A DNA stretch of 64,000 bases from a virus (taxonomy: Duplodnaviria; Caudoviricetes), in the IMG/VR virus record IMGVR_UViG_3300014205_000170, positions 256,001 through 320,000 of that record. The stretch is one strand, 5' to 3'. A model generated the notes under the pieces. It did no database searches, had not been told where the DNA came from, and saw only the letters and a list, made by a program, of their open reading frames with translations. The first letter of the stretch is position 1. Every line of letters begins with the position of its first letter. Made by a program: the position numbers and the translations under genes. Below, one piece after another: positions 5,867 through 57,504 of the stretch.

Positions 5867-6433
5867 ATGCCAATATTCGTTACAATACCTAAAATACTTC
5901 AATATTTACAAACACGTCTTGTTTTAATAGAAAAAATAATTAAATCAAAGCCAAAAACAGTAGCAATTCCACGACTAATAGAAGAACCAAGACCAAATAG
6001 ATTTAGACCAGTTCCTATTGAACAAGAACCAAAAAGAAATAATAGATTTATTGTAATATTACCGCCTGAGTTTGGAATAGAATCATATTTTATTCAAAAA
6101 ATCAATAGACCCAAAATATCTTTTACACAAAATAAATATGAATGGGCAAATATAGAATTGGAATTATTCGATGTAATTGGTCCATCTACAACAAAAGCAA
6201 TATATAAAATAATTGATTTTTGTCAAGAACATAAAAATTTAAATGTAAAAGAAAATTTTTTATTTAGTTTATCAATTCAATCTTTAGACCCTGTAGGATG
6301 TGTTGTAGAGGAGTGGGTTATCGATATAAAAGAGATATTAAATATAGATTTTGGAGATTGTGATTACAGCAATGATGATGTTCAAAAAATAAAAATTTTG
6401 ATTAAACCCTATAATTGCGAATTAGTTAATTAA
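5867..6433 (+). CDS. Tail-tube (gp19-like) paralogue with N-terminal extension carrying the TRLVLIEK tag
   Basis: EPKRNNRF...RPKI...W..IELELFDVIGPS...LDPVGCVVEEW...DFGDCDYS matches T4-like tube proteins. Confidence 0.75.
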   Translation: MPIFVTIPKILQYLQTRLVLIEKIIKSKPKTVAIPRLIEEPRPNRFRPVPIEQEPKRNNRFIVILPPEFGIESYFIQKINRPKISFTQNKYEWANIELELFDVIGPSTTKAIYKIIDFCQEHKNLNVKENFLFSLSIQSLDPVGCVVEEWVIDIKEILNIDFGDCDYSNDDVQKIKILIKPYNCELVN

Positions 6434-7454
6434 TCCTTACAACATTTGAAATTAAATCTTGTAATTTAGTACCAGTTAGATATGGTTCTAATTGCAGGGT
6501 TAAATTATTTGGAACCGCTGGACTTTGAGGAGTGTGTACATGTGTAATTAAAAATCTTAATATCAATCTTAAAAGTATAATTAATTCATCACCAAATACT
6601 GTGGGATGTAATGAATCAGCTAAACTGCCAAAATCTTTCAATCTTGTACTAAGCTCAACATCTGTTCCTAAGTTAGGTTTTTTAAATTTTCCTTCTGGAG
6701 AATATATATTAATATTAGTAGATTGAAAATTTATTTGAGAATAAGGAACAAATGTACTTTCAGATAATGCTAATCTGTCAAAAATTCTAATTGAATTTGG
6801 ATTCACATTTTCAGTTTCTACTTGTTTAATTTCTATTTGACAAGGAGTGTTTGTATTTAAATCGGTAGTACCTTTTTTAAACCTTCCAGCTCTAATCAAA
6901 ACAGACCTAGGAGAAAATGTAATATCAGCATCTTGTCTTCCTTGTAAAGCAATATCACTTGGTTGAGGGTAATAAAAAGCAGCTTTATTTAAATTATTTG
7001 TTGTTGGGTTTGAAGCAGTATTTTTTTGAGAAAAATTATTGATGTTAAAAATCTCAGATGCATCTGTATAGGATTGATAAGGTAATTTTGTTTGTTGACT
7101 TATTACAGGACCTAACCAATATCTAGTTGACGTTAAATCCAAAGGATTTTCACTGATAACAAGAACCATTTCACCAACTTGAGGACGTATGTGAGAAAAT
7201 TCAGACAGTAATGGTATACAAATTGGAAGTTTATCCGTAGGGGTATCTCTATCTTTTCCGGGTTTAATAGCTCCATTTTCATCTAGAGTTACTATTTCAG
7301 CTTTTAAACGATTAAAGCCGGCATAATCATCAGTACTTCGAACAACAGCAGCATAGATAATCCTCAAAGATGACGAAGGGTCACCTCTGTAATTATCTTG
7401 ACCTCCCATAGATAGGAGAGATTCAGACATGCTGGTAAAATCGTTCTTGCCCAT
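6426..7454 (-). CDS. Baseplate hub/central spike protein (gp5/gpV-like)
   Basis: N-terminal OB-fold pattern (VVRSTDD...R.KAEI...PQVGEMVLVI...RYWLGP) and C-terminal THVH (HxH spike-tip metal motif). Confidence 0.75.
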   Translation of the reverse strand: MGKNDFTSMSESLLSMGGQDNYRGDPSSSLRIIYAAVVRSTDDYAGFNRLKAEIVTLDENGAIKPGKDRDTPTDKLPICIPLLSEFSHIRPQVGEMVLVISENPLDLTSTRYWLGPVISQQTKLPYQSYTDASEIFNINNFSQKNTASNPTTNNLNKAAFYYPQPSDIALQGRQDADITFSPRSVLIRAGRFKKGTTDLNTNTPCQIEIKQVETENVNPNSIRIFDRLALSESTFVPYSQINFQSTNINIYSPEGKFKKPNLGTDVELSTRLKDFGSLADSLHPTVFGDELIILLRLILRFLITHVHTPQSPAVPNNLTLQLEPYLTGTKLQDLISNVVRIN

Positions 7455-7630
7455 TATTTTGAGTTTTGTTTCACTTCCTCTATTAAAGTATAATAAGTCT
7501 TTTCCAATGAATCAATTACATTTAATAAAGTTTCAACTTCTTCTTTCTTTTTATTTATATCATCAACAATATCTTGGATATCTCTAAGAAGTTGAGTGTT
7601 AGTTTTTTTATTTACGTTAACGTTATCCAT
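7454..7630 (-). CDS. Small coiled-coil protein (58 aa)
   Basis: Manual translation MDNVNVNKKTNTQLLRDIQDIVDDINKKKEEVETLLNVIDSLEKTYYTLIEEVKQNSK*; fills the gap and overlaps the next gene by TAATG. Confidence 0.7.
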   Translation of the reverse strand: MDNVNVNKKTNTQLLRDIQDIVDDINKKKEEVETLLNVIDSLEKTYYTLIEEVKQNSK

Positions 7631-7636
7631 GCTCTT

Positions 7637-12855: not shown

Positions 12856-13506
12856 TTATTTTTCAATTAATACTTTTCTTACAATAGGTTTTGGTTTATA
12901 ATATTCAAACACTTCTGCTAATTGCTTTGTATCTTTTGCATACATTTCCCAATCATCTGGTGCCACTTCTTCTTCTATCACATCAATATAAAATGTTTTT
13001 GGCTCAAAAGGAAAACCTCTTATTAATTGACTACCATGAATTTTCAAATCTGAATTACCTGATAAAAAATCTTTTTTGCTTGCCCAAAAACTTCCATTCC
13101 AACAAGAACCATTCGGTGTTCTTTTAACAATAGCATCTATATATTTTACATTTCCATCTTTATCTTTAAATAAAGCCGAACATCTTTTATTTTGCCACAT
13201 TGGTTCGTTTTCATTTCTATCAGTAATATCATGCCACTCCTCTTCTATTCCTGTAATAGGAGAAATAGGTTCTTGTAAACATAATTTTTCTATGGTATTA
13301 CATAACACTGCTGCTGTCAATGGAGCAGAAGAACCACTTTGACCTGACTGTCCAAACTTTTCAACTAATGCTAAAATTTCTGGAATGAATTCCTCTACGA
13401 TTGCCGTAGTATTTTGTTCTCTATAATAGTTAACAAGAACATCTAATTCTAATTTTGCATGTTTAAAAGTATTAGTCATTCTTGTCTTGTGTTTTTTGTT
13501 TAGCAA
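12856..13506 (-). CDS. Conserved phage hypothetical protein with C-terminal RKVLIEK tag
   Basis: LVEKFGQSGQSGSSA...PITGIEEEW...QNKRCSALFK pattern of a widespread phage family; ends VRKVLIEK*. Confidence 0.65.
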   Translation of the reverse strand: MLNKKHKTRMTNTFKHAKLELDVLVNYYREQNTTAIVEEFIPEILALVEKFGQSGQSGSSAPLTAAVLCNTIEKLCLQEPISPITGIEEEWHDITDRNENEPMWQNKRCSALFKDKDGNVKYIDAIVKRTPNGSCWNGSFWASKKDFLSGNSDLKIHGSQLIRGFPFEPKTFYIDVIEEEVAPDDWEMYAKDTKQLAEVFEYYKPKPIVRKVLIEK

Positions 13507-14302: not shown

Positions 14303-14773
14303 TTATGCTTTTGCAGCAGCTTCTGTCACCGGTACATCCTCAGCAAACGAGGATTCGTGAGCCCAGATTAAATTAAAGCCATATAGCTCATAATCATCCT
14401 GAACAATTTGATTTTTAACAGCACCTTTTCCTTTAGGAACAAGAGCACACTTATCAAGGAATCCTTCTTCGTTGTTGATTTTATCAACATATGGAGAATC
14501 GCCTTCAACCTTAAATTGAGATACTCCGAAAAGTTTTTTACCTTCCATTTCCAAACGTACAACACGACCAATGTTGAATTCGTCTTTTAAGTATTCATAA
14601 TCATATTCATCATCTTCGATTGCACACTCAATATCGAGTCCTTCACCGTTTTCTTTTAGCTTATCAGAGTTAAGCCAAGTCTTTACAAGTGCATCTGTAA
14701 AGATTCTGTGATTCTTGTTTTTTTTGTCTACTTCTAGGATGAAGAAGCGTTTTTCTTTGATTTTTTGCGCCAT
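14303..14773 (-). CDS. Degenerate prohead-protease (gp21-like) paralogue
   Basis: KNKNHRIF ~ KNxNGRIY; LEMEGKKLFG ~ LWxEGNxxYG; PKGKGAV ~ SSRGxGSV; VQDDYELYGFNLI ~ VQDDFELICFDLV. The GELxHP His and SSRG Ser are absent. Confidence 0.6.
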   Translation of the reverse strand: MAQKIKEKRFFILEVDKKNKNHRIFTDALVKTWLNSDKLKENGEGLDIECAIEDDEYDYEYLKDEFNIGRVVRLEMEGKKLFGVSQFKVEGDSPYVDKINNEEGFLDKCALVPKGKGAVKNQIVQDDYELYGFNLIWAHESSFAEDVPVTEAAAKA

Positions 14774-19878: not shown

Positions 19879-19885
19879 TAAATGA

Positions 19886-42405: not shown

Positions 42406-42406
42406 T

Positions 42407-42886: not shown

Positions 42887-42944
42887 ATAATAAGAATTTA
42901 CTTTTTCTTACAAAAAAGTACTTTTAACATAAAATAAAACAAAC

Positions 42945-43355: not shown

Positions 43356-43360
43356 GTAAC

Positions 43361-44017: not shown

Positions 44018-44028
44018 AATTTAAACTT

Positions 44029-45342
44029 ATGAAAAACGATAAAAAATACAGAATTTTAATTATGCCTAGCGACTTAGCAGGTGTAGGACATTTTAGGTCA
44101 ATCTGGTTGGCGCAACAAATTGATAAAGATTTTGCAGATGATTTCTATGTAGAAATTAATGTAATGCCTGATTTTAATGATGTTCATTATTTTAAAAGTT
44201 TTGATTTAATCCATTTTCATAGACAATTAGGTCCTCACGAAAACATGGATGTATTTTTTAAAGATTTAAAAGATGCCGGCGTTATTTTAGTAATGGATTT
44301 AGATGATTATTGGGCACCTCCAACTACTCATCCGTTATATGGAATAGCAGTTAAAGAAAAGCTATCTGAAAAAATCACAAAGACATTAAGAATGTCAGAT
44401 TATGTATCTACCACAACAGATATATTTGCAAAACAAATTATGGCATATAATAAAAATGTTGTTGTTATGCCAAATGGTTTAGATATGAATCAGCAAATGT
44501 GGAAAGATGAAGATACTAGAATAAATGATAAAGTAAGAATTAGTTGGATAGGCGGCTCTAGTCACCAACATGACCTTATGTTATTGAAGCCTTCGATGAA
44601 ATTATTACACAATGATGAAAGTCTTAAAGGTAAATACCAAATCGTTATGTGTGGTTATGACACAAGAGGACACGTTACCATCGTAAATGAAGATGGAGTA
44701 ACACAAGAAACTAGAAAAATTACTCCTGCTGAAACTATTTGGAATAAATTTGAAGAGATTTTTACAGACAATTATAATCCAAATATCATTTCTGCTGAGT
44801 ATCAAAAATGGTTGAAAAAATATAAAAATGAACCATATCCACATGGAAACATATTAGATGAGACATATGTAAGAAGATGGACATTGCCTTTGACTCAATA
44901 TGGAAAACACTATAACTATTGCGATATATGTTTAGCTCCTCTAGAAGAAGAAGAAAAGTATATTAACGAAAAAGGTAAAGAAGCAAAAAGAAGACATTAT
45001 TTTAATGAAGTAAAATCTGAATTGAAAATCATTGAGGCCGGTATGAAGAAAAAAGTTTTAATTGCCCAGGACTTCAGTATTTATAAGGATTTGATTAAAC
45101 ATAACGTAAATGGTCTTCTTGTCAACAAACCAATGCATGAAAAAGGATGGTATGGTCAAATCAAGAAAGTAATTGAGAATAAAGACCTAAGAGAAACATT
45201 GGCCAACAATTTACATCAATTTGTGAAAGAAAGATATAACTTAGAACGTTTAACAGAAGAGAGAATTGACCTTTATTACAAAATGTTGGATGAAGGGAAA
45301 TTAAAAAAAGAAGAATTACAAAAAGAATTACAAAAAGCTTAA
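44029..45342 (+). CDS. GT-B fold glycosyltransferase
   Basis: GVGHFRS, MDLDDYW, WIGGSSH..DL, DICLAPL, FNEVKSELKIIEAG. Confidence 0.85.
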   Translation: MKNDKKYRILIMPSDLAGVGHFRSIWLAQQIDKDFADDFYVEINVMPDFNDVHYFKSFDLIHFHRQLGPHENMDVFFKDLKDAGVILVMDLDDYWAPPTTHPLYGIAVKEKLSEKITKTLRMSDYVSTTTDIFAKQIMAYNKNVVVMPNGLDMNQQMWKDEDTRINDKVRISWIGGSSHQHDLMLLKPSMKLLHNDESLKGKYQIVMCGYDTRGHVTIVNEDGVTQETRKITPAETIWNKFEEIFTDNYNPNIISAEYQKWLKKYKNEPYPHGNILDETYVRRWTLPLTQYGKHYNYCDICLAPLEEEEKYINEKGKEAKRRHYFNEVKSELKIIEAGMKKKVLIAQDFSIYKDLIKHNVNGLLVNKPMHEKGWYGQIKKVIENKDLRETLANNLHQFVKERYNLERLTEERIDLYYKMLDEGKLKKEELQKELQKA

Positions 45343-45406
45343 AAAGCTATATTAATTTTACTTCAAATCCACTTTTTAGAAGCTATTTATTGGTAAATCA
45401 AGTACA

Positions 45407-46215
45407 ATGAAACAAATCAGCCTCAATTATGGAGCCATAAGAGATACTATTTTTAAGTATTCTGGAAAACAATTAGTATCAGAAGGTGGTAAATCATCTA
45501 GTATATTAAATTCTTTCTTAAAAAGTGTAAAAGAAATACCAGCACTTAAGCTTCAACATATTGTATTTAAAAATTTAGAAGAAGGTCATTTCACAAAAGA
45601 AAGATTAGCAGAAAGATACATTGCTGAAAATCTAAAAATAATGGAAAGCGTTTCTTGGGATAAGCTTATTGAAGCTAATCGTAATATAAGAATAGGTTTA
45701 TTAGAAAATTGTCACGTAGAAGGAAAAAAGGGTGAATTATACGAAAGTATTCACACTCTTATGGAATCCATATGTAGAAAGGGTTTTACTAATGTAGACC
45801 AATCCAACAAAGCCTATGATGACGTTTTAAATTATCTTTTAAGAGAAATGTTTCAGAAACTACAGCAATTGAGCCGGAAACAGAAGAATTTCCAAAATTA
45901 TTATCCTGGAACTTTGTTACTAATTTAGCCGTAAATAATTTTAACCAAAGATATGCTCATTTGAATGAAAATGAAAAACAACTTTTAAAAGTTCTTCTTT
46001 CAACTAATGAAAATAAAACAAATCACTTAGAAGACCTTAAAAAAGAAAATATTGATTTAATCAACTCTATTTTAAAAACAAATATTGATGAAGAAAGTCA
46101 AAAAGTTCTAATCGGTTTTAAAGAAAATATTGAGTCTAATCTAGCTGAAAACATTGATGATAACATCATTCATTTAGCAGAATTAAGGGACACTTTAATG
46201 GATTTTCAAAACTAA
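45407..46215 (+). CDS. Helical head/scaffold-region protein split by a -1 frameshift near 45826-45848
   Basis: ORFs 45407..45928 and 45961..46215 join through the -1 frame (NVSETTAIEPETEEFPKLLSWNFVTNLAVNNFNQRYAHLNENEKQLL). Confidence 0.65.
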
Positions 46216-46658
46216 ATTTTCATCTCAATCACATGAGTGGTTGATGTACCACTTACAGTTTGATATATAGGCGTTTGCCAAAAAGAGATTCTTTGTGTTG
46301 TGGAGGTTCCAATACCAATCCCATAAGTCCATAAATCATTAAAATCTTTTACACGAACTTTAAAGGTTTTTTCAACACATACTATTCTAGTTAAAGGCAT
46401 CATATACAATTCCCATTCACAATATTCATTAAAATATGCATTAGAATATAGAGAGCTCTTCTTAATTATATATTTTATTTCATCATTTTCATAAATAACT
46501 GATTCAATAACTCCTTCTCCTGTATTAAAACCTTTAAACCCAACCACATCACCTACTTTAAAAAAAGGTTTTGGCATTCGTTTAGGCATGAAACTTTTAA
46601 AATGATTTTTTTTATCTTTTAAAATTAATTGTTTTTTATTAAACTTAGATTTGTTCAT
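46212..46658 (-). CDS. SH3/KOW-like small protein with TRIVCVEK tag
   Basis: FKVGDVV..GVIESV..KYII pattern. Confidence 0.55.
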   Translation of the reverse strand: MNKSKFNKKQLILKDKKNHFKSFMPKRMPKPFFKVGDVVGFKGFNTGEGVIESVIYENDEIKYIIKKSSLYSNAYFNEYCEWELYMMPLTRIVCVEKTFKVRVKDFNDLWTYGIGIGTSTTQRISFWQTPIYQTVSGTSTTHVIEMKI

Positions 46659-46921
46659 TTTTTTTCAAACAAAATCATTCTTTTTAAAGGTTGTGCGATA
46701 AAATATTCTGCTGCACCAAACGTTTCTGGTTCTGGTTGTTGAAAATAAAATACATTATATGAATTAATTCTTTGAAACATATAATAATCTTCAACTTTAT
46801 TATACTCTTTCGTCACTCTATATAGATGTTTTTGATTGTCTCGACTTAAAACAATATCTCCAAATTCAAATCTACCCATTTTCAATAAATGTTGAATATT
46901 GCATAGCCATAGCCTTCGCAA
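46655..46921 (-). CDS. SH3-like small protein with C-terminal KRMILFEK tag
   Basis: FEFGDIV..LYRV; probable start MGRFEFG. Confidence 0.55.
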   Translation of the reverse strand: MRRLWLCNIQHLLKMGRFEFGDIVLSRDNQKHLYRVTKEYNKVEDYYMFQRINSYNVFYFQQPEPETFGAAEYFIAQPLKRMILFEKK

Positions 46922-47483
46922 TACCCGGAAAAGTTTTACTTCTTAATTTAGCGCGGTCTTCTGTTGGTGATAAACGATGTAATCTTTGTTCTCTACCAGC
47001 TACTATATTAGTAGGGGTTAATAATGGTAAATTTTTTAACCATAAACAAGTTGCTTTAGTTTCTCCATGTCCAAACATCCAAGGTTGTAATACTTGGTCT
47101 GGCTTTCTAAATTCACTGCTCATTACACCAATAGGATTTTCAATTGCAATTCTTGGAATTTCACAATTATACAAATCCATAAAAAATTTTATTGCTTCTA
47201 CTCTTGCTGCTCTTCTTTCTGCACCAACTAAAGTACCGGATTTTCTTGGAGGTTGGTCTTTGTACCATTTATTAGCACTAATAGTCAAATAAGTGCAAGG
47301 TGGAAAAAATATTGCCAAATCCCATTGTTTCATTCTTATTGCTTCAAACACATCCATTTGTAAATGCCACTCAGGATGCCCTCCGGAACATTCTAACATA
47401 TCATTACTATATGCTTCATGTCCTAATGCTCTAAACGCTTTGCACACTTCTTGACTCTCTTCACAGCCTAATAATACTTTCAT
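46872..47483 (-). CDS. Short phage-type DNA cytosine-C5 methyltransferase
   Basis: VLLGCEES, FPPCTYL (catalytic PC), IENP, QPWMFGH, KATCLW, RSKTFPG. Confidence 0.8.
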   Translation of the reverse strand: MKVLLGCEESQEVCKAFRALGHEAYSNDMLECSGGHPEWHLQMDVFEAIRMKQWDLAIFFPPCTYLTISANKWYKDQPPRKSGTLVGAERRAARVEAIKFFMDLYNCEIPRIAIENPIGVMSSEFRKPDQVLQPWMFGHGETKATCLWLKNLPLLTPTNIVAGREQRLHRLSPTEDRAKLRSKTFPGIAKAMAMQYSTFIENG

Positions 47484-47497
47484 CGTTGTTGTTGTTA

Positions 47498-48316
47498 TTA
47501 AGGATTTTGTTCTACGTGTAGATTAACTAAATTTTGAATGATTCTTTTTGTGTCAGAACAAAAATCACCATTTTGAATCCAAGTATGATATTTAGTGTCT
47601 TTAGCAAGTGAACTAGCCACTGGAAGACCTTGATATTTTCCGAAAGTAAAACAAGGTACGCCGGCGTTATTCATTTTAACTTTACCTTGAAAATCTAATT
47701 CATTAGGGTCGTTTACAAAATCATGTAAAATTTGAATATCATTTTGTATTGGAGAATCTATTTGAGTTCCATCTTCCTTATCATACTTAACACCTTCATA
47801 TTTCTGTATTTGTGCTTCTAGAACCTTAATTGTTCCTCGTGTATCAGCCAATGCATCATGTGCATTATCTAGTGTTTCATTACAATAAAAACGAACAGCC
47901 GCTTTCAATGTTCTTGGCTCCATTTGATGAAAGATTCGTTGAACATCCACACATCTTCTCTCTGACATGTCTAATTGTATTCCACAACGTTCAAATTCTT
48001 CCATTAAAATTGGAATATCAAATCTATTAGAATTATAGCCACAAAAATCAGCATCGCCTATCAAAGCCAATAAACCATTTGCAAGAGCTTGAAATGTTGG
48101 TTGTCCTTGCACCATATCATTAGTAATTCCAGTCAATTCAGTAACTTTTTCCGGAATAGGAATTCCTGGATTAATATATCGAACTCTTTCAATTGGAGGT
48201 CTGCCATCGGCAAAATATTTAATTATTGCTAATTGAATTATTCTATCCTTGGAAACTGACAATCCTGTGGTTTCGCAATCTAGAATTACTAAATCTTTTA
48301 TTAAATTTAATTTCAT
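47498..48316 (-). CDS. dnaQ: DEDDh 3'-5' exonuclease, DNA polymerase III epsilon-like
   Basis: LDCETTG, GYNSNRFDIP, AHDALAD, C-terminal FGKY; Bacteroidota-like architecture. Confidence 0.9.
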   Translation of the reverse strand: MKLNLIKDLVILDCETTGLSVSKDRIIQLAIIKYFADGRPPIERVRYINPGIPIPEKVTELTGITNDMVQGQPTFQALANGLLALIGDADFCGYNSNRFDIPILMEEFERCGIQLDMSERRCVDVQRIFHQMEPRTLKAAVRFYCNETLDNAHDALADTRGTIKVLEAQIQKYEGVKYDKEDGTQIDSPIQNDIQILHDFVNDPNELDFQGKVKMNNAGVPCFTFGKYQGLPVASSLAKDTKYHTWIQNGDFCSDTKRIIQNLVNLHVEQNP

Positions 48317-48326
48317 GTTTTTTGTT

Positions 48327-48797
48327 TTATTTTTTTAAAAAATACATATAAGTAGAAGTGGGGAACAAAGATTTTTCGAACAAAACTGTACGACTATTCA
48401 TTGTGGAAACGATAGATTTTATTGTATTAATAATAGAATCAATTTTAAAACCAGAAAGATATCCTGATACAGGAGTGCCTCCAATAACATAAGCACCACA
48501 GTGCTTAATAACACTATAATCAACATCATCTAAATAAGTTTCATAATCAGAAGAAGTCACATCTTCATTCACAACAATAGTTCCTTTATTGTTATAATAA
48601 ATTAATATTTCAAATTCATCATAGTCTGTTAATAATTCTAACGTTTTTCGTGGGTTTGAGTAATGACCTGAACTAGCTTGAATAGAAATAACAAATCCTT
48701 CTCCTAAATCTACATGAGAATTCATTCCATAACCATGTTCAATTTTACGCTCTTTTATTAGAGGAATGAAATCAAATTTATTTATTTCTGGTATCAA
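48327..48797 (-). CDS. Hypothetical protein with SRTVLFEK tag
   Basis: GFVISIQAS.GHYSNPR pattern of a common phage family. Confidence 0.6.
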   Translation of the reverse strand: MIPEINKFDFIPLIKERKIEHGYGMNSHVDLGEGFVISIQASSGHYSNPRKTLELLTDYDEFEILIYYNNKGTIVVNEDVTSSDYETYLDDVDYSVIKHCGAYVIGGTPVSGYLSGFKIDSIINTIKSIVSTMNSRTVLFEKSLFPTSTYMYFLKK

Positions 48798-49164
48798 TTA
48801 AAGGTAAATTTTTAGCAATTACTTCAGCTTTTAATTCTAAATTTTTAAATTCAAAAGCTGTGTTAATGTTTTTATGTTTTTTATCAGTGATTTTTATTCC
48901 TGGATATAATGATAAAGTATATTTAAATAATCCTTGAGAGATTTTAAATACTTTCTGTTCAGCAATATAACCATCCCAAATATACGAATTATCTTTTTGC
49001 TTCCAAGTAATTAAACCAGAAGAATGTTCTTTTAAGTTTTCAAAATACAATCTGGCTTTGAGTTTATCGGATTCTATTTTTTGTTTCCTTTTAACTCTCT
49101 TTTTTTGAGCTTCGTCTTGTTCTTGCTTAACTCTTTTGTTGTATTTGTTTTGATAGTCATCCAT
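48778..49164 (-). CDS. Hypothetical protein
   Basis: 128 aa ORF in the operon. Confidence 0.55.
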   Translation of the reverse strand: MDDYQNKYNKRVKQEQDEAQKKRVKRKQKIESDKLKARLYFENLKEHSSGLITWKQKDNSYIWDGYIAEQKVFKISQGLFKYTLSLYPGIKITDKKHKNINTAFEFKNLELKAEVIAKNLPLIDTRNK

Positions 49165-49517
49165 TTTTCATTTATAGATTTATGATGTAATCTAACTTCT
49201 TCTATTGGCCAATGCTCCAGAGAAGTTTGTATTTCTGAAATTTCTGCTTTATCAACCCAAAAAAATATTTTCGAATTCATTGCAGTTGAACAAACATTGA
49301 ATTTGTCTGTTTCAATACAAAAACCCACAACAATAAGTGGGTCATCAGAATAAACAATATTATCTTTTCCTAATGTTTTATCTTTAAGCAAAAAAGCATA
49401 TGATACATGTATCGATACGCTGTCTGTGTCCCAGTTAATGTCCGTATTAAATAACGCATCATTATATTTTACATGACCTTTTTTGGAAAATAATATTTCA
49501 TCTGCATTAGGCATCAA
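49074..49517 (-). CDS. Hypothetical protein
   Basis: 147 aa ORF overlapping both neighbours. Confidence 0.5.
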   Translation of the reverse strand: MMPNADEILFSKKGHVKYNDALFNTDINWDTDSVSIHVSYAFLLKDKTLGKDNIVYSDDPLIVVGFCIETDKFNVCSTAMNSKIFFWVDKAEISEIQTSLEHWPIEEVRLHHKSINEKWMTIKTNTTKELSKNKTKLKKRELKGNKK

Positions 49518-50376
49518 AATGTTGTCTTAAAATAGAACTGTTAACGCGACATTTCAATATTTTTAAAGCGCCATCTTTAATTTGTCTTACTCTTTCTCTT
49601 GTTAACTCAAAATATTCACCAATTTCTTCTAAAGTCATAGCCTGTTGACCTAATAAACCAAAATACATACATACAACAGATTTTTGTCTTGGAGTAAGTC
49701 TATCCAACACTTTTTCTAAGTCCGCTTTCATAGACTCTTTATTTAGGTCACTATCAGGACTGATGCTATCTTTGTTTGGTATAAAATCCATTAACGTTAA
49801 AGCGCCATCATCTTCTGAAATAGGAGTTTCTAATGAAACCGTTCTACCGGTCATCATTCTTACATCCTTAACTTTAACATCAATGCCTTCTAAGGATTGT
49901 TGCACTTCATCATCTGTTGGTTCTCTTTCTAAAATTTGTTCAAGATTAGAAATTGCTTTATTTACTTTATATATGGATGAAGTTTGATTGCTTGGAATAC
50001 GAATTAATCTGGATTGCTCTGCAAGTGATTGCATTATAGCTTGTCTAATCCACCAAACAGCATAAGAAATAAATTTAAATCCACGATTAGAATCAAATTT
50101 TTTGGCTGCTTTTATTAAACCCAAATTACCTTCATTCACCAAATCTTCTAAAGGAAGACCACGATTTTGGTATTGTTTTGCGACGGATATAACAAAACGA
50201 AGGTTACCACGAACTAATTTATCTAAGGCTTTATCATCACCGCTAGTAGCTTTTTTGGCTAAATCAATTTCCTGGGTATCAGTAAGGAGAGGAATCTTAC
50301 TGATTTCATTAAAATATTTTGTAATGGATTCACTATCTCTATTAGTTATCCTTTTGGTAATCTTAAGTTGTCTCAT
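49507..50376 (-). CDS. rpoD: RNA polymerase sigma-70 factor, Bacteroidota RpoD type
   Basis: MRQLKIT, NLRFVISVAKQYQ, EGNLGLIKAA, FISYAVWWIRQ, MTLEEIGEYFELTRERVRQIK. Confidence 0.92.
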   Translation of the reverse strand: MRQLKITKRITNRDSESITKYFNEISKIPLLTDTQEIDLAKKATSGDDKALDKLVRGNLRFVISVAKQYQNRGLPLEDLVNEGNLGLIKAAKKFDSNRGFKFISYAVWWIRQAIMQSLAEQSRLIRIPSNQTSSIYKVNKAISNLEQILEREPTDDEVQQSLEGIDVKVKDVRMMTGRTVSLETPISEDDGALTLMDFIPNKDSISPDSDLNKESMKADLEKVLDRLTPRQKSVVCMYFGLLGQQAMTLEEIGEYFELTRERVRQIKDGALKILKCRVNSSILRQHFDA

Positions 50377-50452
50377 TATTTATTTGCTCTATTGCAAATA
50401 TAATAAATTGACAAGTAGTGAACCAAATTTTAGGACAAGAGAAAAGTAGATA

Positions 50453-51328
50453 TTAGTTTAAATACTTACGAAGCAAGTTCGAACTACTAAACCTTCGCAA
50501 TCTTCTTAAAGCTTTTTCTTTGATTTGTCGAACACGTTCTGCAGAACAATCATATTTCAGTGCTATCTCTGAGAAAGACAAGGGTTGGCGACCATTTAAA
50601 CCAAAAAATAATTCAACCATTTCTCTTTCTTTTTCTGGTAATGTAGCAATGGCTCTATTCACATCTTTTTTAATAGATTCTGTTAATAACAGTGGCTTGT
50701 CTGGAGAGTAAATGTCACTGTCAAGAGGTTGTATAACATCTAATAATGATGGAGAAGTTTCATCATCAGAAAGAGGAGAATCATACGATTGAACTCTTTG
50801 CATAATTTTCATTAAATCACTTATCTCTTTTTGACCCAGACCCATTTTCTCCATTACTTCTTCATCGCATGGTGGTCGACTCAAATCTTGTTCTAATTTA
50901 GAATAAGCAGTTAAAAATTTATTTTGTAAAGAGATTTTATTTAAAGGGATTCTAATTAACCGGCTGTTATCTGCGATATTTTGAAGGATGGATTGTCTAA
51001 TCCACCAAACAGCAAACGAAATAAACTTAAAACCTCTAGTTTCATCGAATTTATAGGCAGCTTTAATAAGCCCTAAATTGCCCTCATTAATAAGGTCTTG
51101 TAAATCAATTCCACGATTCTGATACTGTTTGGCCACAGAGACAACAAAACGTAAATTAGCGCATACCATTTTGTTTAAAGCAGCTTTATCACCCTCTCTA
51201 ATTTTCCTTGTAAGCTCAATTTCTTCTTCATGTGTTATCATGGGAAGTTTGGCAAGTTCAGTAAGATATTTTTCAACCGATTTAGAACTTCGATTGGTAA
51301 CAGAGGGAGTAATTTTTAATTGTCTCAT
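50453..51328 (-). CDS. rpoD: Second RNA polymerase sigma-70 factor, Bacteroidota RpoD type
   Basis: MRQLKIT, NLRFVVSVAKQYQ, FISFAVWWIRQ, LSFSEIALKYDCSAERVRQIK. Confidence 0.92.
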   Translation of the reverse strand: MRQLKITPSVTNRSSKSVEKYLTELAKLPMITHEEEIELTRKIREGDKAALNKMVCANLRFVVSVAKQYQNRGIDLQDLINEGNLGLIKAAYKFDETRGFKFISFAVWWIRQSILQNIADNSRLIRIPLNKISLQNKFLTAYSKLEQDLSRPPCDEEVMEKMGLGQKEISDLMKIMQRVQSYDSPLSDDETSPSLLDVIQPLDSDIYSPDKPLLLTESIKKDVNRAIATLPEKEREMVELFFGLNGRQPLSFSEIALKYDCSAERVRQIKEKALRRLRRFSSSNLLRKYLN

Positions 51329-51387
51329 ATAGGTTTAAAACGTTGGTCTCATTTTAAACGAATCAATATAAATTTTGTTACAAAAAA

Positions 51388-52188
51388 TTACTTTGTTAGT
51401 AAAAATTGCAGTCTATCTCTGATTTTAGCGCAAAATTCATAGTTTTCCTTATCAATAGCTTTGGTCAACAATGAATTCAAAAATTCCACACTTGTAATTC
51501 TATCCAGATTTTGGTTAAACACTTCTTCAATTTTAACTCCACTATATCCACTTAAAGATTCTGTTTTGTTGTGAATAGCTGGATAATAAAAAAATTCAAC
51601 AGAACCTGTAGTTGCATTTTGTAAAATATTATATAAAATAATATCTTGTTCTTCAAAACTTAATTTGTTGAATCTTTTAAATTCTTCTTGTTCTCTATTT
51701 ACCAGTTCAGATTTTGCTTTATAATAATCATCACACATGTGCTCAACTTCTTGTGGCATATGAGCATAATTCATTCTGATTGAAATTGTGTTCTTTGTAT
51801 TTTTAGTAGAAAGATTTTTAATATCTGATTTTCTAGTCGCAATTAAAAAACAACCGGTTACTTCATGAATTAATCCTAATTTATGAAACATTTTAGGATA
51901 TAACTTTCTCTTATTAATGTGTTGAATAACTTTATCTTGTTCATTTAAAAGACCTTCAACATCTACAATAAAATCATCATTTGGGAAAATTTTGGAATAA
52001 TCTATTTTTTCAGCCATATTAACATATTCTAAAACAATAAAATAATTTAATTTGGATATAGAATCGATTCTCGCAATTCCTTCTTTACCACCCTTACTTT
52101 TAATTTCAAAAAATTTTTCTTGAACTAATTTGTATTCTTCCAACAGGGATTTTGCTCTTCTAAACGAAACTTTTTTAATTATTTTCAT
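51388..52188 (-). CDS. Hypothetical protein with C-terminal UvrB/UvrC motif
   Basis: LLTKAIDKENYEFCAKIRDRL. Confidence 0.65.
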   Translation of the reverse strand: MKIIKKVSFRRAKSLLEEYKLVQEKFFEIKSKGGKEGIARIDSISKLNYFIVLEYVNMAEKIDYSKIFPNDDFIVDVEGLLNEQDKVIQHINKRKLYPKMFHKLGLIHEVTGCFLIATRKSDIKNLSTKNTKNTISIRMNYAHMPQEVEHMCDDYYKAKSELVNREQEEFKRFNKLSFEEQDIILYNILQNATTGSVEFFYYPAIHNKTESLSGYSGVKIEEVFNQNLDRITSVEFLNSLLTKAIDKENYEFCAKIRDRLQFLLTK

Positions 52189-52236
52189 CGTCCAAGAATT
52201 ATATGTTATACATAAATATATTAGAAAAATACACTC

Positions 52237-52479
52237 CTATATATTCCAGTCTAATTGATTAAAAAACGCTTTAATCACACCAAAAGATTCTTGGTCAAAA
52301 GTCTTAGCCGTAACCTCTCCTTTTTCATTAATAAAATTAATAGATAAAAACTTAATTTGTTGTCCTTTTTCTCTAAAAGTAACCAAATCAACTTCAAATT
52401 TACCTCCACCCTCTCCATCTGCTAAATGCAAATATGTGGTTTTTTCATTTCCTTGTCCTTGTGTATTGGTACTTTCCAT
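52237..52479 (-). CDS. Hypothetical protein
   Basis: 80 aa ORF preceded by a bipartite promoter. Confidence 0.6.
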   Translation of the reverse strand: MESTNTQGQGNEKTTYLHLADGEGGGKFEVDLVTFREKGQQIKFLSINFINEKGEVTAKTFDQESFGVIKAFFNQLDWNI

Positions 52480-52533
52480 TATTAAAAGTATTTTTTTTTA
52501 AAATTAAATAGAGATTGTCAAAAAGTAAACAAC

Positions 52534-52767
52534 TCAAAATGAAACAACACCATATAGATTATGGTTCACTTGAATTTTAGCATATCTAGAAGTTACTTTT
52601 TTAGATGGAGTAAAATCATCCACAATAATTGACGTATTATACATAGGTATATAAGGAGCAAAAATATAACCTGCCTCATATTCAAATCGTTTACGTTTTT
52701 TTTCAAACAATACTTTTCGAGTATATGAATCTTTATTTTCTTTTATAATATTATGATGGAAATTCAT
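52534..52767 (-). CDS. Major capsid protein (gp23-like) C-terminal fragment with TRKVLFEK tag
   Basis: EAGYIFAPYIPM...FTPSKKVTSRYAK..VN..LYG matches the conserved T4-like MCP C-terminal GxxxAPYxP...FxPxxGxxTRY block. Confidence 0.75.
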   Translation of the reverse strand: MNFHHNIIKENKDSYTRKVLFEKKRKRFEYEAGYIFAPYIPMYNTSIIVDDFTPSKKVTSRYAKIQVNHNLYGVVSF

Positions 52768-52922
52768 TTACTTTTTCCTTTTTTAAATTCAAAACTTACA
52801 CTAGTATTTCCTTCAAAAGCAACTATCGTATTTTTTGGAGACAAAACAACTAAATTAAGGTCATTTGAGATTTTTTCAAATAAAACCATTTTTTTATATA
52901 ATGTTGTTATAGTTCCTTCCAC
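52764..52922 (-). CDS. 52-aa protein with KKMVLFEK tag (missed by the ORF track)
   Basis: GTG start: MEGTITTLYKKMVLFEKISNDLNLVVLSPKNTIVAFEGNTSVSFEFKKGKSK*; ATGA overlap with 52767. Confidence 0.65.
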   Translation of the reverse strand: MEGTITTLYKKMVLFEKISNDLNLVVLSPKNTIVAFEGNTSVSFEFKKGKSK

Positions 52923-52924
52923 TA

Positions 52925-53113
52925 TTATTTTGTTTTAAAAATATTTATTGCGTCTAATGTTAAAAGTAATAATTTTCTTGTCATTCCCCAATAGATTTTC
53001 ATTCTTTTCAAAAAACTAATTGAAATTTCTTCTGTCTTCTCAATAATAACAAAACGCGTATTGTCATGCATTATTAAATCAAAATCTTCTGGCTTTTCAA
53101 CAAAATCTCTCAT
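52925..53113 (-). CDS. 62-aa protein with TRFVIIEK tag
   Basis: Coupled to the Hc1-like gene by TAATG. Confidence 0.6.
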   Translation of the reverse strand: MRDFVEKPEDFDLIMHDNTRFVIIEKTEEISISFLKRMKIYWGMTRKLLLLTLDAINIFKTK

Positions 53114-53339: not shown

Positions 53340-55235
53340 TTAATCTAAAATTTCACCTTCTTTTTTATTGATTCCATCTTCAAGGCTCTTGAGATGATTT
53401 TCAATATTTTCCATTAGCATTTTTGTTCTATGATTTACAGCTGCATTATTTTTTTGTAACTTCGTAGGTTGGTTTTTTTTAGGTGCTCCTTCTGAAAGTG
53501 GTTCTTCCGGAATCGTTTCTTCTCCTCCTTCACCACCTTCTGCACCAGCTTCTGCTCCTAAGTTTTCTCCTCCGGCTTCACCGCCTAAGCCTCCCATATC
53601 AGCTCCGCCACCCATATCAACTCCACCACCTAAGCCACCGCCAAGACTACTGCTTATTCCTGCACCAGCACTTGCTCCCATATCAGCTCCACCACCCATG
53701 TCACCATTAGCTGCATCAGGTTGTGCTCCTGGTACAAAATCTGGTCTTCTGAATTTTTTATCAAGGTCTACAAATATTCCAGTTTCAATATATTCAGCAG
53801 CAGCGCCCTCAATTTCAGAAAACATCTTACGTTCAATTTTCTTCTGTCTAATAATTTGTTTTATTTCAGCCTCAGAAAAACCCATAATATATTGCATTGC
53901 CCAAGTATAAGACACTGGAGAAGTAGGTTCAGGAGTAAACATAGCTTGAAACACTTCTAAACGTGCTTTCATTGTTTCCAACTTAAGCAACTCTTGTTGA
54001 GTTGAAGGATTTGCTAATGTTAATTGAAAATTATCTATTTCATCTTCTAGACCTAAAAAATATAAATGAATATTTGCAACTCTTCTTAATTCTATAATAA
54101 TGAATTGTTGAAGTCTGTTTATAGTTCTTGAAAATCTTAAATCCGCTTGAGAAAGTGCTGAACCTCCCGGAATAGTTTCTGCATAATTTAAATAAGGTTT
54201 TGGAACTTTTAAAGCCGCAAATAATTTATTTTGTAGATATTCAATATCCGCAATATCATTTAAATTAGATGCACCTGGTAATGTTTCAATTCTAGAACTT
54301 TTATCTCCTCTTACTGGTAAAAAATAATCTTCTTCATAAGTAATAGGACTATATTTTAAATTTATATTTCCAGTTGTCGGGTCTACTAAAGGAGCTTTTT
54401 TAACTTGCGCTTTAGTTTTCTCCATAAATTGAGGCACATCTGCAGGGTCTATATTTCCAACTTCAATAAAATATACTCTACGCTCTGGTGCTCTTACTAA
54501 TCTATAAACCAACATAGCATCTTCCGCTAATTGTAATTGTTTCCACAATTTTCGAGCTGGTTCTAAAACAGAACGACCATATGGTAATCGACTACTATCA
54601 GAAAGTAATCTAAAGTGTGCAATTTGCCATTCCTCAAAGAACATATTGCCAACATCCCATCTAAATCTACATTTACCCAATTCATTCGTTGGAGATTCTT
54701 CTCTATGAATTTCTCCAACTGGTAATTGAATAATATCATAAACACCTCTTTCTTGGTCTATTTCCAATTTTAAAAATAAATCACCAAATTTTAACAATTC
54801 TCTAGACCAAAAACCAAGATTATAATTTACATTAAGAACATTATAAAATAAATCTTTTAAAGTCTTTTTTACTCTCGAATTTTCACTGTATATAGTTAAA
54901 ATTTCACCTTGTTCAGAACGCGTTACACATTCATCAGCTAAAATATCCAATGCCGCAGAAACTTCCGGAGATTGGTCCATTGCTCTATAATCTTGATAAG
55001 ATGTAAATCTATCTGCTTCATAATATAAAGAACGTGAATATAAATCTTGTGCAATTTTTGAAGATTGTATATCTAAAAATTCTTGTTGTTTTTGTTGTTT
55101 GGATGCAAAAGGATTACTTAAAGCCGGTGTGCTTACAAGTATGTTTTTATTGGTTTCTTCCGCGCTTTGAGGTCGCTGTCTTCTCAGAGCTCTAAACACC
55201 CCTGCGAATATACTATCATCATATTTTTCAGCCAT
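53340..55235 (-). CDS. Portal protein, T4 gp20-like
   Basis: YRAMDQSPEVSAALDILADE, HFRL, PYGRSVLE, LAEDAMLVYRLVRAPERRVYFIEVGN, EDYFLPVRG, LFAALKVP; Gly/acidic tail. Confidence 0.95.
   Translation of the reverse strand: MAEKYDDSIFAGVFRALRRQRPQSAEETNKNILVSTPALSNPFASKQQKQQEFLDIQSSKIAQDLYSRSLYYEADRFTSYQDYRAMDQSPEVSAALDILADECVTRSEQGEILTIYSENSRVKKTLKDLFYNVLNVNYNLGFWSRELLKFGDLFLKLEIDQERGVYDIIQLPVGEIHREESPTNELGKCRFRWDVGNMFFEEWQIAHFRLLSDSSRLPYGRSVLEPARKLWKQLQLAEDAMLVYRLVRAPERRVYFIEVGNIDPADVPQFMEKTKAQVKKAPLVDPTTGNINLKYSPITYEEDYFLPVRGDKSSRIETLPGASNLNDIADIEYLQNKLFAALKVPKPYLNYAETIPGGSALSQADLRFSRTINRLQQFIIIELRRVANIHLYFLGLEDEIDNFQLTLANPSTQQELLKLETMKARLEVFQAMFTPEPTSPVSYTWAMQYIMGFSEAEIKQIIRQKKIERKMFSEIEGAAAEYIETGIFVDLDKKFRRPDFVPGAQPDAANGDMGGGADMGASAGAGISSSLGGGLGGGVDMGGGADMGGLGGEAGGENLGAEAGAEGGEGGEETIPEEPLSEGAPKKNQPTKLQKNNAAVNHRTKMLMENIENHLKSLEDGINKKEGEILD
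53560..53705 (-). repeat. Gly-rich DMGGG coding repeats in the portal tail
   Basis: DMGGGADMGASAGAG...GGGVDMGGGADMGGLGGE. Confidence 0.6.
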
Positions 55236-55294
55236 TTTGTATCAAGTTTTATATTACAAATAAATTAGTTTTTTAGTCAAAGTAAACCATTAGG

Positions 55295-56980
55295 TTAGGT
55301 GGAAATAGGTCCATATAGCCACCCTAAATCACTATCTGGAGTTTGTATATTTTTCTTTATTTCCTTTTGTATATTAGCAGAAGGCGCATTAGGATTACCA
55401 TTTGTTTGATAGCTGATGGATTCAATCATAGCTTTAAAAAATTCTTTACTTTTAAATACATTATCAAATTCAGTATCTCTCATAAATAATGCTATCGCAA
55501 ATGCAAAAATAAGGTCATCATTATATCCATCAGCATGCTCAGGTTTATCGCCTTTATGGATGAATGTTCGAAATTCAGTCAATAGTCTTTTTGAATAAAT
55601 TTTTACTTGTGTTTCTCTCATATATTTTGCTACACAACTCATTAGTAAAGGTCTAGTTTTTGAAGTTGTTTGAAAACCTGGAATTTCACTATCTTGGTCT
55701 ATAAAATCAAGTCCACCATATCTTACATAGATTTTTTTAATTGATTTAGAATGATGAATTTTATCAGAAGGATATCCTAAAGTATTTTTAAGCGCAAGTG
55801 TCGTTACTAAACCATGGTTATTTCCTTCAATCGCAACAAAGGCCATATTATAATCAATTGCTACCTTCATCACTAATTGTGCAAAAACATCTGGAGGGAT
55901 TTTACCTTGATATTCTGCTACTTGAGTTAAAGTATCTGCATTAATTACTTGTAAAGTTGAAAAGTCAGCACTATCTCCACGGGCAACATCCCCTCCTATA
56001 ATATAATTTGCTTTAGGTTCTGGTTTTTCCCAAACATAAAATGTAGTTTCTCTTTTAATAAATCGCTCTGCTGGTTCTTTGTAATCGTAATACCAAACAG
56101 GTTTAATTGTAGAAATATTATTTTCATATTTGTCAATAATCCAATTTTCAATTACAACAGCAGAAGAGCCTTCAAATGATAAATCTAATTCTTGTGCGAT
56201 TTTAATTTTATCATATTTCATCAATGCGCATTGTTCTTCATACCAAGGACTCCACCAAAATCTTCTTCCATGTTCATCTACTCTTTCTTCTAATCCTCTT
56301 GCATAATAAGGATGTTTACTCCAATGCACTTCTGTTCCAACAAAAGCTTTTTTATCTGTCTTTTGTTTTTTAATTGTTTCTGTCCAAGTTGTATGATATA
56401 AACCACCAGTTCCATTTGGAGTAGAAATCATAATACACTTAGCACTTTCAGCAGATAAAGCCAAACCTGCAGCCATCCAAATTTCTTCTGCGTTTTCAAT
56501 AAACGCAGTCTCATCTAAAATTAACATTGTTAATGTTTCTCCACGTCCAGCATTTCCACCGGAAGCTACCGCCTTACACCAACTACCATTAGATATGATA
56601 ATTTGTTGTGTATTATTTGTAGGAATGCTATCAGGTAAAAGAAAAGGAGGTAAGTAATCTAAAAATTGTTTTACCGATGCTAAAAATCGTCTTGCTCCAG
56701 CACCATCATTTGCTACAATAAGAATTCTTTCATTCTCATTAAAAAGCATTTTCCAACATACATATCCAGATGTAATTACACTAAGTCCTGTCTGGCGAGC
56801 TTTAAGTATAATGTTATTTTTATGATTTGTGTAATTACTTAAAACTTCTTTTTGATATTCGAAAAGAGTTAATCTATCAATAGTATTTTTGGTAATATCA
56901 AAAATATAACCATACGTATTCATAAAATACACAGGGTCTCTAGCACATCTTATAAATTCTATTGTTTCTTGTTGTGTCAT
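55295..56980 (-). CDS. terL: Terminase large subunit, T4 gp17-like
   Basis: KARQTGLS Walker A, LILDE Walker B, ISTPNG, nuclease GGDVARG..D, DDLIFA. Confidence 0.95.
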   Translation of the reverse strand: MTQQETIEFIRCARDPVYFMNTYGYIFDITKNTIDRLTLFEYQKEVLSNYTNHKNNIILKARQTGLSVITSGYVCWKMLFNENERILIVANDGAGARRFLASVKQFLDYLPPFLLPDSIPTNNTQQIIISNGSWCKAVASGGNAGRGETLTMLILDETAFIENAEEIWMAAGLALSAESAKCIMISTPNGTGGLYHTTWTETIKKQKTDKKAFVGTEVHWSKHPYYARGLEERVDEHGRRFWWSPWYEEQCALMKYDKIKIAQELDLSFEGSSAVVIENWIIDKYENNISTIKPVWYYDYKEPAERFIKRETTFYVWEKPEPKANYIIGGDVARGDSADFSTLQVINADTLTQVAEYQGKIPPDVFAQLVMKVAIDYNMAFVAIEGNNHGLVTTLALKNTLGYPSDKIHHSKSIKKIYVRYGGLDFIDQDSEIPGFQTTSKTRPLLMSCVAKYMRETQVKIYSKRLLTEFRTFIHKGDKPEHADGYNDDLIFAFAIALFMRDTEFDNVFKSKEFFKAMIESISYQTNGNPNAPSANIQKEIKKNIQTPDSDLGWLYGPIST

Positions 56981-57060
56981 TGTATTTAACTAACAATAAA
57001 TAGCTTAATTTTTACCTATTTTGGCAAAAAATCAACTATTTTCCTTAATAAAATGATATT

Positions 57061-57504
57061 TTATCTTTCGAAAGAAAAAGCGAAAAAATTAATTATAATT
57101 GATGGTTTACCATCAATAGATGTAATTGAATTTAATTGACATCCACGTAATGATAAAAAATGTTTATAATATTTAGAATTTAAATAAAAAAAAAACATAT
57201 CAACTCCTTTGGTGTTTTTGCCTTGTTCAAACTTACGAAGCCATTTAATGAAATTAGCAGATTGAGTTTTATCATAAGAATCAACTATATTAATAGTAAT
57301 GGGTTCTAGAATTTCAATCCACTTTTCTTCTTCATTCATTTCTAATGTCATTTTTGTACTTACTGTTGGGTCAAATTCAACTAATAACATAGTTTCTAAA
57401 TGTGAATTGTAATCACAAAATTTCATTCCAAATAAATTTTGATTTGATTTTTTTTCAAATAGAACTTTTCTTTTATTAAAATTTTGTAATAACGTCTTTA
57501 TCAT
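57061..57504 (-). CDS. Highly degenerate tail-tube-like paralogue with KRKVLFEK tag
   Basis: EPITINIVDS....ANFIKWLR....LRGCQLNSI resembles tube W.PITIT.xD....xxEW....LxGCF. Confidence 0.5.
   Translation of the reverse strand: MIKTLLQNFNKRKVLFEKKSNQNLFGMKFCDYNSHLETMLLVEFDPTVSTKMTLEMNEEEKWIEILEPITINIVDSYDKTQSANFIKWLRKFEQGKNTKGVDMFFFYLNSKYYKHFLSLRGCQLNSITSIDGKPSIIINFFAFSFER

What the first reader, a model, noticed from the sequence alone, without database searches (positions are those of the whole stretch)
5867..57504. Tagged ORFs include a set of crippled virion-protein mimics (portal, capsid, prohead protease, tail tube): possible anti-defence decoys or assembly poisons
Seen: five tagged ORFs are fragments or inactive copies of core morphogenesis proteins (5867 tube, 34801 portal clip, 35960 protease, 52534 MCP C-terminus, 57061 tube). 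An untagged dead protease copy also lies at 14303. Established: these protein classes are triggers of bacterial immune sensors (Avs4 senses portal, CapRel and Lit sense major capsid protein, DSR2 senses tail tube; prohead protease has been reported to activate some CBASS). Inference: the mimics could bind and neutralise such sensors, with the common tag delivering the bound sensor to a shared effector. Alternatively they could act as dominant-negative inhibitors of co-infecting related phages, like PICI-type interference.
Basis: partly seen in the sequence, partly recalled or inferred. Interest (0 to 1): 0.92.

Follow-up and report, generated by a model that had tools for sequence, protein, structure and literature searches.

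The report
Tagged virion-protein decoys and their reader
A giant uncultured phage puts the same seven-residue label on about 200 small proteins, among them cut-down copies of its own capsid, portal, tail-tube, terminase and head-protease proteins and two known immune inhibitors, and a catalytically dead head protease is predicted to grip that label; this looks like an undescribed modular anti-immunity kit, but no function has been tested.

Summary
Observation confirmed and extended. All five tagged ORFs and the untagged 14303 ORF are homologous to tail tube (two), portal clip, prohead protease (two, catalytic His lost) and capsid C-terminus; intact genes lie elsewhere in this 519-kb T4-like phage. 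The tag [RK]-x-V-L-[IFTLV]-E-K marks about 199 of 861 ORFs (shuffles 1-4) and is selected as protein. Only about a dozen tagged ORFs are recognisable virion mimics, yet the copied core genes are almost exactly known immune triggers, and tagged Tad3 (window 12856) and Acb3 tie the tag to anti-defence. Orthologues stay intact and syntenic in relatives. New here: the tag is in register with gp21's own I/L-x-E propeptide, and a complex model docks it in the cleft of the dead paralogue 14303 (0.66, best control 0.08; may reflect likeness to solved T4 gp21). Best reading: baits for host sensors, gathered by a gp21-fold reader. The scan noted similar tag-plus-fragment designs, with other tags, in other jumbo phages; I found no paper on it.

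The parts
5867..6433 (+). Tagged full-length tail-tube paralogue; tag at aa 17-23 (nt 5915-5935)
   Evidence: orthologues L033, G005
12856..13479 (-). Tad3-family Thoeris inhibitor (207 aa) ending exactly in the tag (nt 12859-12879)
   Evidence: PF25185 E 2.7e-27; 28 of 120 homologues carry the tag appended after the domain
14303..14773 (-). Untagged, catalytically dead gp21 paralogue lacking the N-terminal blocking peptide; candidate tag reader; own middle/host-type promoter
   Evidence: complex model
34801..35124 (-). Portal clip mimic (portal 254-321 minus its hairpin), helix, then tag at aa 99-105 (nt 34810-34830) in a disordered tail
   Evidence: Foldseek inconclusive
35960..36424 (-). 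Tagged dead prohead-protease paralogue (His lost); tag at aa 18-24 (nt 36353-36373)
52534..52767 (-). Tag (aa 17-23, nt 52699-52719) fused to the last about 48 residues of the major capsid protein
   Evidence: syntenic orthologues of 83-208 aa in L032-L035, L041, L043
57061..57504 (-). Diverged tail-tube/Hcp-fold protein; tag at aa 12-18 (nt 57451-57471) in a disordered N-terminus; absent at this site in tag-poor sister phages
53340..55235 (-). Intact portal gene (the source of the clip mimics)
   Evidence: PF07230 E 7e-75
55295..56980 (-). Intact large terminase (a tagged copy of its ATPase part lies at genome 472490-473170)
18112..52925 (.). Further tagged small ORFs of unknown body in the window (starts of ranges 18112, 18432, 18746, 19072, 21123, 22596, 36424, 43361, 46212, 46655, 48327, 52764, 52925)

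Best explanation
The phage runs a modular bait-and-label system. Each of about 200 small genes encodes a variable body plus one (rarely two) copies of a short strand, [RK]-x-V-L-[IFTLV]-E-K, in a flexible arm. A subset of bodies are pieces or spoiled copies of the phage proteins that bacterial sensors watch (capsid, portal clip, tail tube, terminase ATPase, prohead protease, probably sheath) or are known inhibitors (Tad3, Acb3); they bind host immune proteins without completing assembly or catalysis (inferred). The tag is a gp21-type I/L-x-E ligand and is gripped by a gp21-fold cleft, most likely the dead, open-cleft paralogue 14303 (modelled), which gathers bait-sensor complexes so that the sensor is sequestered, cannot oligomerise, or is handed to a protease such as the phage's ClpC/ClpP (the last step is a guess). 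Shown: tag, homologies, conservation, Tad3/Acb3 tagging. Modelled: tag in 14303. Inferred: sensor binding. My odds by step: baits for host immune proteins 0.6; tag read by a gp21-fold cleft 0.6; reader is 14303 0.4; degradation as output 0.2.
For: Tag in about 199/861 ORFs vs 1-4 in shuffles, codon use equal to the genome's; same consensus in a second phage, 90 strict hits vs 0.9 expected. Of 364 profiles of untagged genes searched against 332 tagged proteins, the core genes hit are portal, TerL, tube, MCP and gp21, none from replication; capsid, portal, tube and terminase ATPase are published STAND-sensor targets (PMC13581612, PMC13601566) and gp21 activates CBASS by cutting an LxE loop (PMC12991175). 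Tagged Tad3 and Acb3; the tag was appended to Tad3 in one clade only. Precedent: DSAD1 mimics tail tube to block DSR2 (PMC10973363). Orthologues intact and syntenic, tag kept in 44 of 53; dN/dS 0.17 for 57061 kin. Tag is in register with gp21's conserved N-terminal K-Y-I-I-S-E peptide, which in T4 blocks the active site (PMC9958956). Complex model 14303 + Tad3 tail: score 0.66, best of 3 controls 0.08 (mark reached by 58 of 80 solved complexes and 2 of 110 mismatched pairs; runs agree in at least 98% of contacts; partner pLDDT at least 58); only tag residues 199-207 touch, on the degenerate active-site strand 112-120 and the family's most conserved residues. 14303 shares the middle/host-type promoter class with most tagged genes. 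Sister phages with 14303 keep a proto-tag on the portal-clip and capsid mimics, while near-complete kin without 14303 have tags at chance level.
Against: No host sensor was modelled or tested. About 94% of tagged bodies have no recognisable homology, so the bait role is extrapolated from about 14 proteins. The complex pass may come from memory of solved T4 gp21 (5JBL, E 1e-19 to this gp21), and close cousins of a true partner also pass, so active gp21 or 35960 could be the real reader. G001 has 14303 but no tags and an untagged Tad3; the cleft residues are the same in tag-rich and tag-poor kin; 14303 is no more conserved than its neighbours. A trigger mimic can activate rather than block a sensor (T4 vs.8 activates Avs2, PMC13601566). 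The Ala-rich tail of 14303 that might feed a Clp protease is missing in one tag-bearing relative (P0131/L437).
Confidence: 0.42

Rival explanations
1. The tag is a substrate or capsid-targeting signal of the active prohead protease gp21: tagged proteins are loaded into proheads and injected as an anti-defence cocktail, or are cut late as an off-switch, like T4 internal proteins.
For: The tag fits I/L-x-E and the register of gp21's propeptide; T4's capsid-targeting sequence packages foreign proteins, and IPI is an injected inhibitor (PMC9958956); in the MCP N-terminal mimic one tag sits where the native cleavage site lay; the complex pass cannot tell gp21 from 14303.
Against: The tag lies at the N-end, the C-end or inside (57/99/43); in 12 proteins it has 0-2 residues after the Lys, so cutting would remove almost nothing; Lys after Glu is invariant in tags but not in head-protein LxE sites; none of the 33 genes directly under the late promoter is a small tagged gene, and a separate late family with helical LxE leaders already looks like the head cargo.
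Confidence: 0.22
2. The bodies are baits, but the tag is read by another hub: a host protease or chaperone, or the phage's N-domain-less ClpC with ClpP, making the tagged proteins F-box-like degradation adaptors.
For: G000 and the second tag-rich phage both encode ClpC without N-domain (78% identical) and an intact ClpP, in middle-class operons.
Against: Such ClpC is common in phages and present in tag-poor kin; no direct link to the tag; not modelled.
Confidence: 0.17
3. The virion mimics are assembly poisons against co-infecting related phages (satellite-type interference).
For: They keep subunit-contact pieces, evolve fast (dN/dS 0.5-0.7 for capsid and portal pieces vs 0.05-0.14 for TerL) and several sit in late operons.
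Against: They are closest to the phage's own proteins (about 40-55% identity), so would poison self first; it does not explain tagged Tad3 and Acb3 or the other 185 tagged genes.
Confidence: 0.12
4. Decaying duplications or ordinary minor virion parts, with the tag a chance or DNA-level repeat.
For: Most tagged genes are patchy among relatives (53 of 199 found in partial kin); tube-fold paralogues do occur as baseplate and terminator parts.
Against: Tag is 50-200-fold over chance and synonymous-variable; reading frames stay open at saturated synonymous distance; 57061 and 52534 are absent at their sites in sister phages with the same virion module.
Confidence: 0.05

Closest known systems
DSAD1 (SPbeta-like phages), tail-tube mimic that blocks DSR2 (PMC10973363)
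   Same: A phage protein occupying the pocket in which a sensor binds a virion protein.
   Different: DSAD1 is a single protein of unrelated fold with no shared tag; here the mimics are true homologues of the phage's own triggers, cover five or six trigger classes and share a label with about 200 proteins.
T4 capsid targeting sequence and gp21 I/L-x-E processing of IPI/IPII/IPIII/Alt (PMC9958956, PMC12991175)
   Same: Short peptide on unrelated small proteins, ending in I/L-x-E, some cargo being anti-defence.
   Different: CTS is N-terminal, on a handful of late proteins and is cut off; this tag is position-free, has an invariant Lys after Glu and sits mostly in non-late operons.
Tad3-Tad6 and Acb3, direct binders of Thoeris ThsB and CBASS CD-NTases (Tad3: PMC13728456; Acb3 from own knowledge and its Pfam description)
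   Same: Window 12856 and genome 341232 are members of these families.
   Different: Here they carry an appended tag, absent from 92 of 120 Tad3 homologues.
F-box/ankyrin adaptors of poxviruses and giant viruses; SspB-type ClpXP adaptors (own knowledge, not tested)
   Same: Many variable target-binding bodies with one short docking motif for a shared machine.
   Different: No ubiquitin system; the candidate reader is a dead prohead protease; a degradation output is not shown.
PICI/satellite interference proteins (own knowledge)
   Same: Small proteins that perturb capsid or terminase function.
   Different: Encoded by the lytic phage itself, derived from its own genes, and labelled.

Membership tests
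T4 gp21 prohead protease family (Peptidase S77) | Fold and sequence homology (35960, 14303) | tested here: met
T4 gp21 prohead protease family (Peptidase S77) | Catalytic His-Ser pair (T4 H85/S140; here H80/S133) | tested here: not met
   35960 lacks His; 14303 lacks both; so pseudo-proteases, not active members
T4 capsid targeting sequence | I/L-x-E at the end of the motif | tested here: met
T4 capsid targeting sequence | Fixed N-terminal position | tested here: not met
   57 N-terminal, 99 C-terminal, 43 internal
T4 capsid targeting sequence | Late expression | tested here: inconclusive
   Promoter motifs inferred from sequence only: 106 middle/host, 16 late, 4 early, 72 unassigned
T4 capsid targeting sequence | Cargo found and cleaved in virions | not testable with these tools
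   needs proteomics
Tad3 (PF25185) | Pfam match above the curated cut-off | tested here: met
   95 bits vs 27
Tad3 (PF25185) | Binds and inhibits ThsB | not tested
   no model or assay
Trigger-mimic inhibitors (DSAD1-like) | Resembles the sensed virion protein | tested here: met
Trigger-mimic inhibitors (DSAD1-like) | Binds the sensor without activating it | not testable with these tools
   host and sensors unknown; the one complex job went to the tag reader
Adaptor-protease degradation systems (F-box-like, SspB-like) | Shared docking motif on variable bodies | tested here: met
   (157 unrelated clusters among 199)
Adaptor-protease degradation systems (F-box-like, SspB-like) | Protease that co-occurs with and binds the motif | tested here: inconclusive
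   ClpC/ClpP present but not tag-specific; AAA-M41 protease absent from the second tag-rich phage

The most novel reading that the evidence does not exclude
A jumbo phage turned a dead copy of its prohead protease into a universal peptide reader and labelled about 200 bait proteins with a protease-propeptide mimic, building an expandable platform that captures (and perhaps destroys) bacterial immune sensors; the roughly 185 tagged orphans would then be a ready-made library of anti-defence proteins.
Probability: 0.3. Interest if true: 0.93.

Novelty: categorically new. Interest (0 to 1): 0.8.

Why it matters
Sensors of core virion proteins are thought hard to escape because the triggers cannot change. 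A phage that makes labelled, non-functional copies of nearly the whole trigger set would be a general counter to them. The tag also gives a sequence handle on about a quarter of the orphan genes of this clade, and the modelled reader makes it testable with one protein and one peptide. The scan has seen other tags on virion fragments in other jumbo phages, in the notes I saw with no identified reader; this case offers a concrete candidate.

Tried and rejected
Tag as DNA element: rejected, synonymous codons follow genome use. Soluble AAA-M41 protease (genome 484139) as reader: rejected, absent from the syntenic region of the second tag-rich phage and no viral kin found. Separate Clp N-domain gene: none. 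ClpC as tag-specific partner: not specific; not modelled. Pfam scan of 63 genes shared only by tag-rich phages gave no evident hub. Alternative tags in tag-poor kin: none by gapped-word search. Foldseek of the 34801 model: no portal match, pTM 0.52, inconclusive. dN/dS between the window and kin is saturated (dS about 1) and not used. The tag-like word in glycosyltransferase 37393 is probably chance. One script timed out, so the core-profile set stops at genome position 487 kb. Ten literature searches found no description of the tag or of tagged virion mimics; the library lacks most subscription papers.
Full report
Setting. The window is bases 256001-320000 of a complete 518,809-base virus record, a T4-like jumbo phage of 30% GC with about 861 ORFs. 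Two sigma-70-like genes and intergenic TATATTTG boxes (the Bacteroidota -7 element, own knowledge) suggest a Bacteroidota host; the best bacterial match of its ClpC is a Bacteroidetes bin. Intact genes for MCP, gp21 (His80 and Ser133 present), tube, portal and TerL were located.

The tag. A position-weight scan finds [RK]-x-[VI]-[LI]-[IFTLV]-E-K in 199 ORFs against 1-4 in shuffles; Glu is invariant, Lys 193 of 194, and codons at these positions follow genome-wide use, so it is selected as peptide. Tagged proteins are small (median about 110 aa), fall into 157 unrelated clusters, rarely have membrane segments (5 of 198 vs 69 of 483), and carry the tag near the N-end (57), the C-end (99) or inside (43). 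In two models the tag lies in a disordered arm. A second phage (G071, G072, G005) has the same consensus, 90 strict hits against 0.9 expected; sister phages G001, G022, G052 and G055 have 0-1.

The five mimics. 5867 is a whole tube paralogue (E 1e-31 to the own tube). 57061 is a far-diverged tube/Hcp fold. 34801 is the portal clip with its hairpin removed (prob 97.4); a weak match suggests that the missing hairpin is carried by another tagged ORF at genome 502334 (E 0.004) and clearly by tagged ORFs of relatives (E 2e-7). 35960 is a gp21 copy without His; its orthologue lost Ser instead. 52534 is the tag fused to MCP residues 458-506. Outside the window lie tagged MCP N-terminal and middle pieces, two more tube copies, a TerL ATPase copy and a short sheath N-terminal piece. 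When 364 profiles of untagged genes were searched against 332 tagged proteins, the core genes hit were portal, TerL, tube, MCP and gp21, plus one tail-fibre-like segment; no polymerase or helicase. So mimics are about a dozen of 199, but they are drawn from morphogenesis proteins that sensors are known to read: capsid, portal and tube by several Avs families (PMC13581612), terminase ATPase by Avs2 and Upx (PMC13601566), gp21 activity by CBASS (PMC12991175).

Not decay. Orthologues of 52534, 57061, 5867, 35960 and 34801 are intact, tagged and syntenic in relatives, while tag-poor sisters lack 52534 and 57061 at those sites. At unsaturated distances dN/dS is 0.17 for 57061 kin, 0.69 for the MCP piece and 0.52 for a portal piece, against 0.05-0.14 for TerL: kept, but changing fast.

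Link to anti-defence. The only named non-virion families among tagged ORFs are Tad3 (window 12856, E 3e-27) and Acb3 (genome 341232, E 6e-37). Tad3 binds and blocks ThsB (PMC13728456). In 120 Tad3 homologues the tag appears in 28, always appended after the end of the domain: it was added to a working inhibitor.

Who reads the tag? The motif is in register with the conserved N-terminal peptide of gp21 in about 40 kin (basic, x, aliphatic, Ile, x, Glu); T4 gp21 cuts I/L-x-E and its N-terminus blocks its own active site (PMC12991175, PMC9958956). The untagged ORF 14303 has the gp21 fold, lacks both catalytic residues and the blocking peptide, keeps the cleft residues, and is a conserved gene of this clade with its own middle/host-type promoter. 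I folded 14303 with the last 34 residues of Tad3: score 0.66, best of three controls 0.08 (mark reached by 58 of 80 solved complexes and 2 of 110 mismatched pairs; runs agree in at least 98% of contacts; partner pLDDT at least 58). Only residues 199-207, the tag, touch, along the degenerate active-site strand 112-120. This supports binding but does not show it: T4 gp21 is solved with its own LxE peptide in that cleft, so the pass may be from memory, and active gp21 or 35960 would probably pass too. Distribution is partly consistent: sisters G020 and G022, which have 14303, keep a proto-tag (L-L-I-E-K) at the same end of the portal-clip mimic; G052 and G055 lack 14303 and tags; but G001 has 14303 and no tags.

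Timing. Three promoter classes stand out in intergenic DNA: an early one confined to the first 46 kb and last 3 kb, where 0-40 kb holds no tagged gene; a late one before head, tail and packaging genes; and a middle/host class. Tagged genes are mostly inserted, translationally coupled, into middle/host operons (106 vs 16 late, 72 unassigned); six of twelve virion mimics fall in late operons with their originals, three in middle/host ones. This is inference from sequence.

Mechanism. Most likely the bodies are baits and the tag brings them to one gp21-fold reader; clustering on an oligomeric reader would sequester sensors, and the phage ClpC/ClpP is a possible but unlinked end point. A dead gp21 could also trap the LxE loop of CD-NTases, which suits 35960 and is an alternative role for 14303. 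The main rival is that active gp21 reads the tag to load or cut these proteins; position freedom, tags at the very C-end and promoter class argue against it without excluding it. Interference with rival phages explains neither Tad3 nor Acb3.

Novelty. Single trigger mimics (DSAD1, PMC10973363) and the T4 capsid-targeting peptide are known; a genome-wide label on trigger copies and inhibitors, with a pseudo-protease as candidate reader, I did not find in the papers searched. Later checks of similar address-label claims gave the bold reading 6-45%, which tempers my odds.

Noticed in passing
P0035, P0037, P0038, P0041, P0046, P0055, P0074, P0113 (Tad3 homologues): These carry a different C-terminal tail, roughly R-x-x-K-L-x-x-I, at the place where others carry the tag: probably a second clade's label on the same inhibitor.
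   Followed up: no
L015:1443-2189 and 2917-4938 (genome 172443-175938): Phage-encoded ClpP and ClpC without N-terminal domain, with a tagged ORF between them; such ClpC is widespread in viral contigs.
   Followed up: partly
L028:17139-19160 (genome 484139-486160): Soluble AAA ATPase fused to an FtsH-type M41 peptidase; no viral relatives found.
   Followed up: partly
L026:3124-4363 (genome 432124-433363): Four tagged ORFs in a row behind a late promoter: MCP N-terminus with two tags, sheath N-terminal piece, a possible sheath C-terminal piece, one unknown.
   Followed up: partly
L212:12896-13795 (G071): A second, diverged 14303-like dead protease domain fused to 150 unknown residues in the early region of the second tag-rich phage.
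   Followed up: partly
G052:16446-17321: Deaminase-like N-terminal part fused to an untagged MCP fragment in a tag-poor relative; untagged MCP pieces also in G001 and G052, so mimics can exist without the tag.
   Followed up: no
window 46212-46658: Tagged ORF whose C-terminal 40 residues match a segment of two long tail-fibre-like proteins (E 2e-6).
   Followed up: no
genome 1-46 kb and 516-518 kb: 55 copies of an early promoter (GTGTAAC, about 16 bases, CGTATAGTA) before single small genes; the first 40 kb hold no tag.
   Followed up: partly
window 38335-39526 and genome 146592, 163370, 431577, 435839, 510411: Family of mostly late-promoter, acidic proteins with helical I/L-x-E leaders: likely the true head-internal cargo.
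   Followed up: no
window 19886-34801: Large sugar-nucleotide and glycosyltransferase cluster with a SET-domain gene at 34277-34801.
   Followed up: no
L043-L048, L052: Portal and terminase genes of relatives are lengthened by large insertions (portal 1047-1505 aa, TerL 913-968 aa), probably inteins.
   Followed up: no
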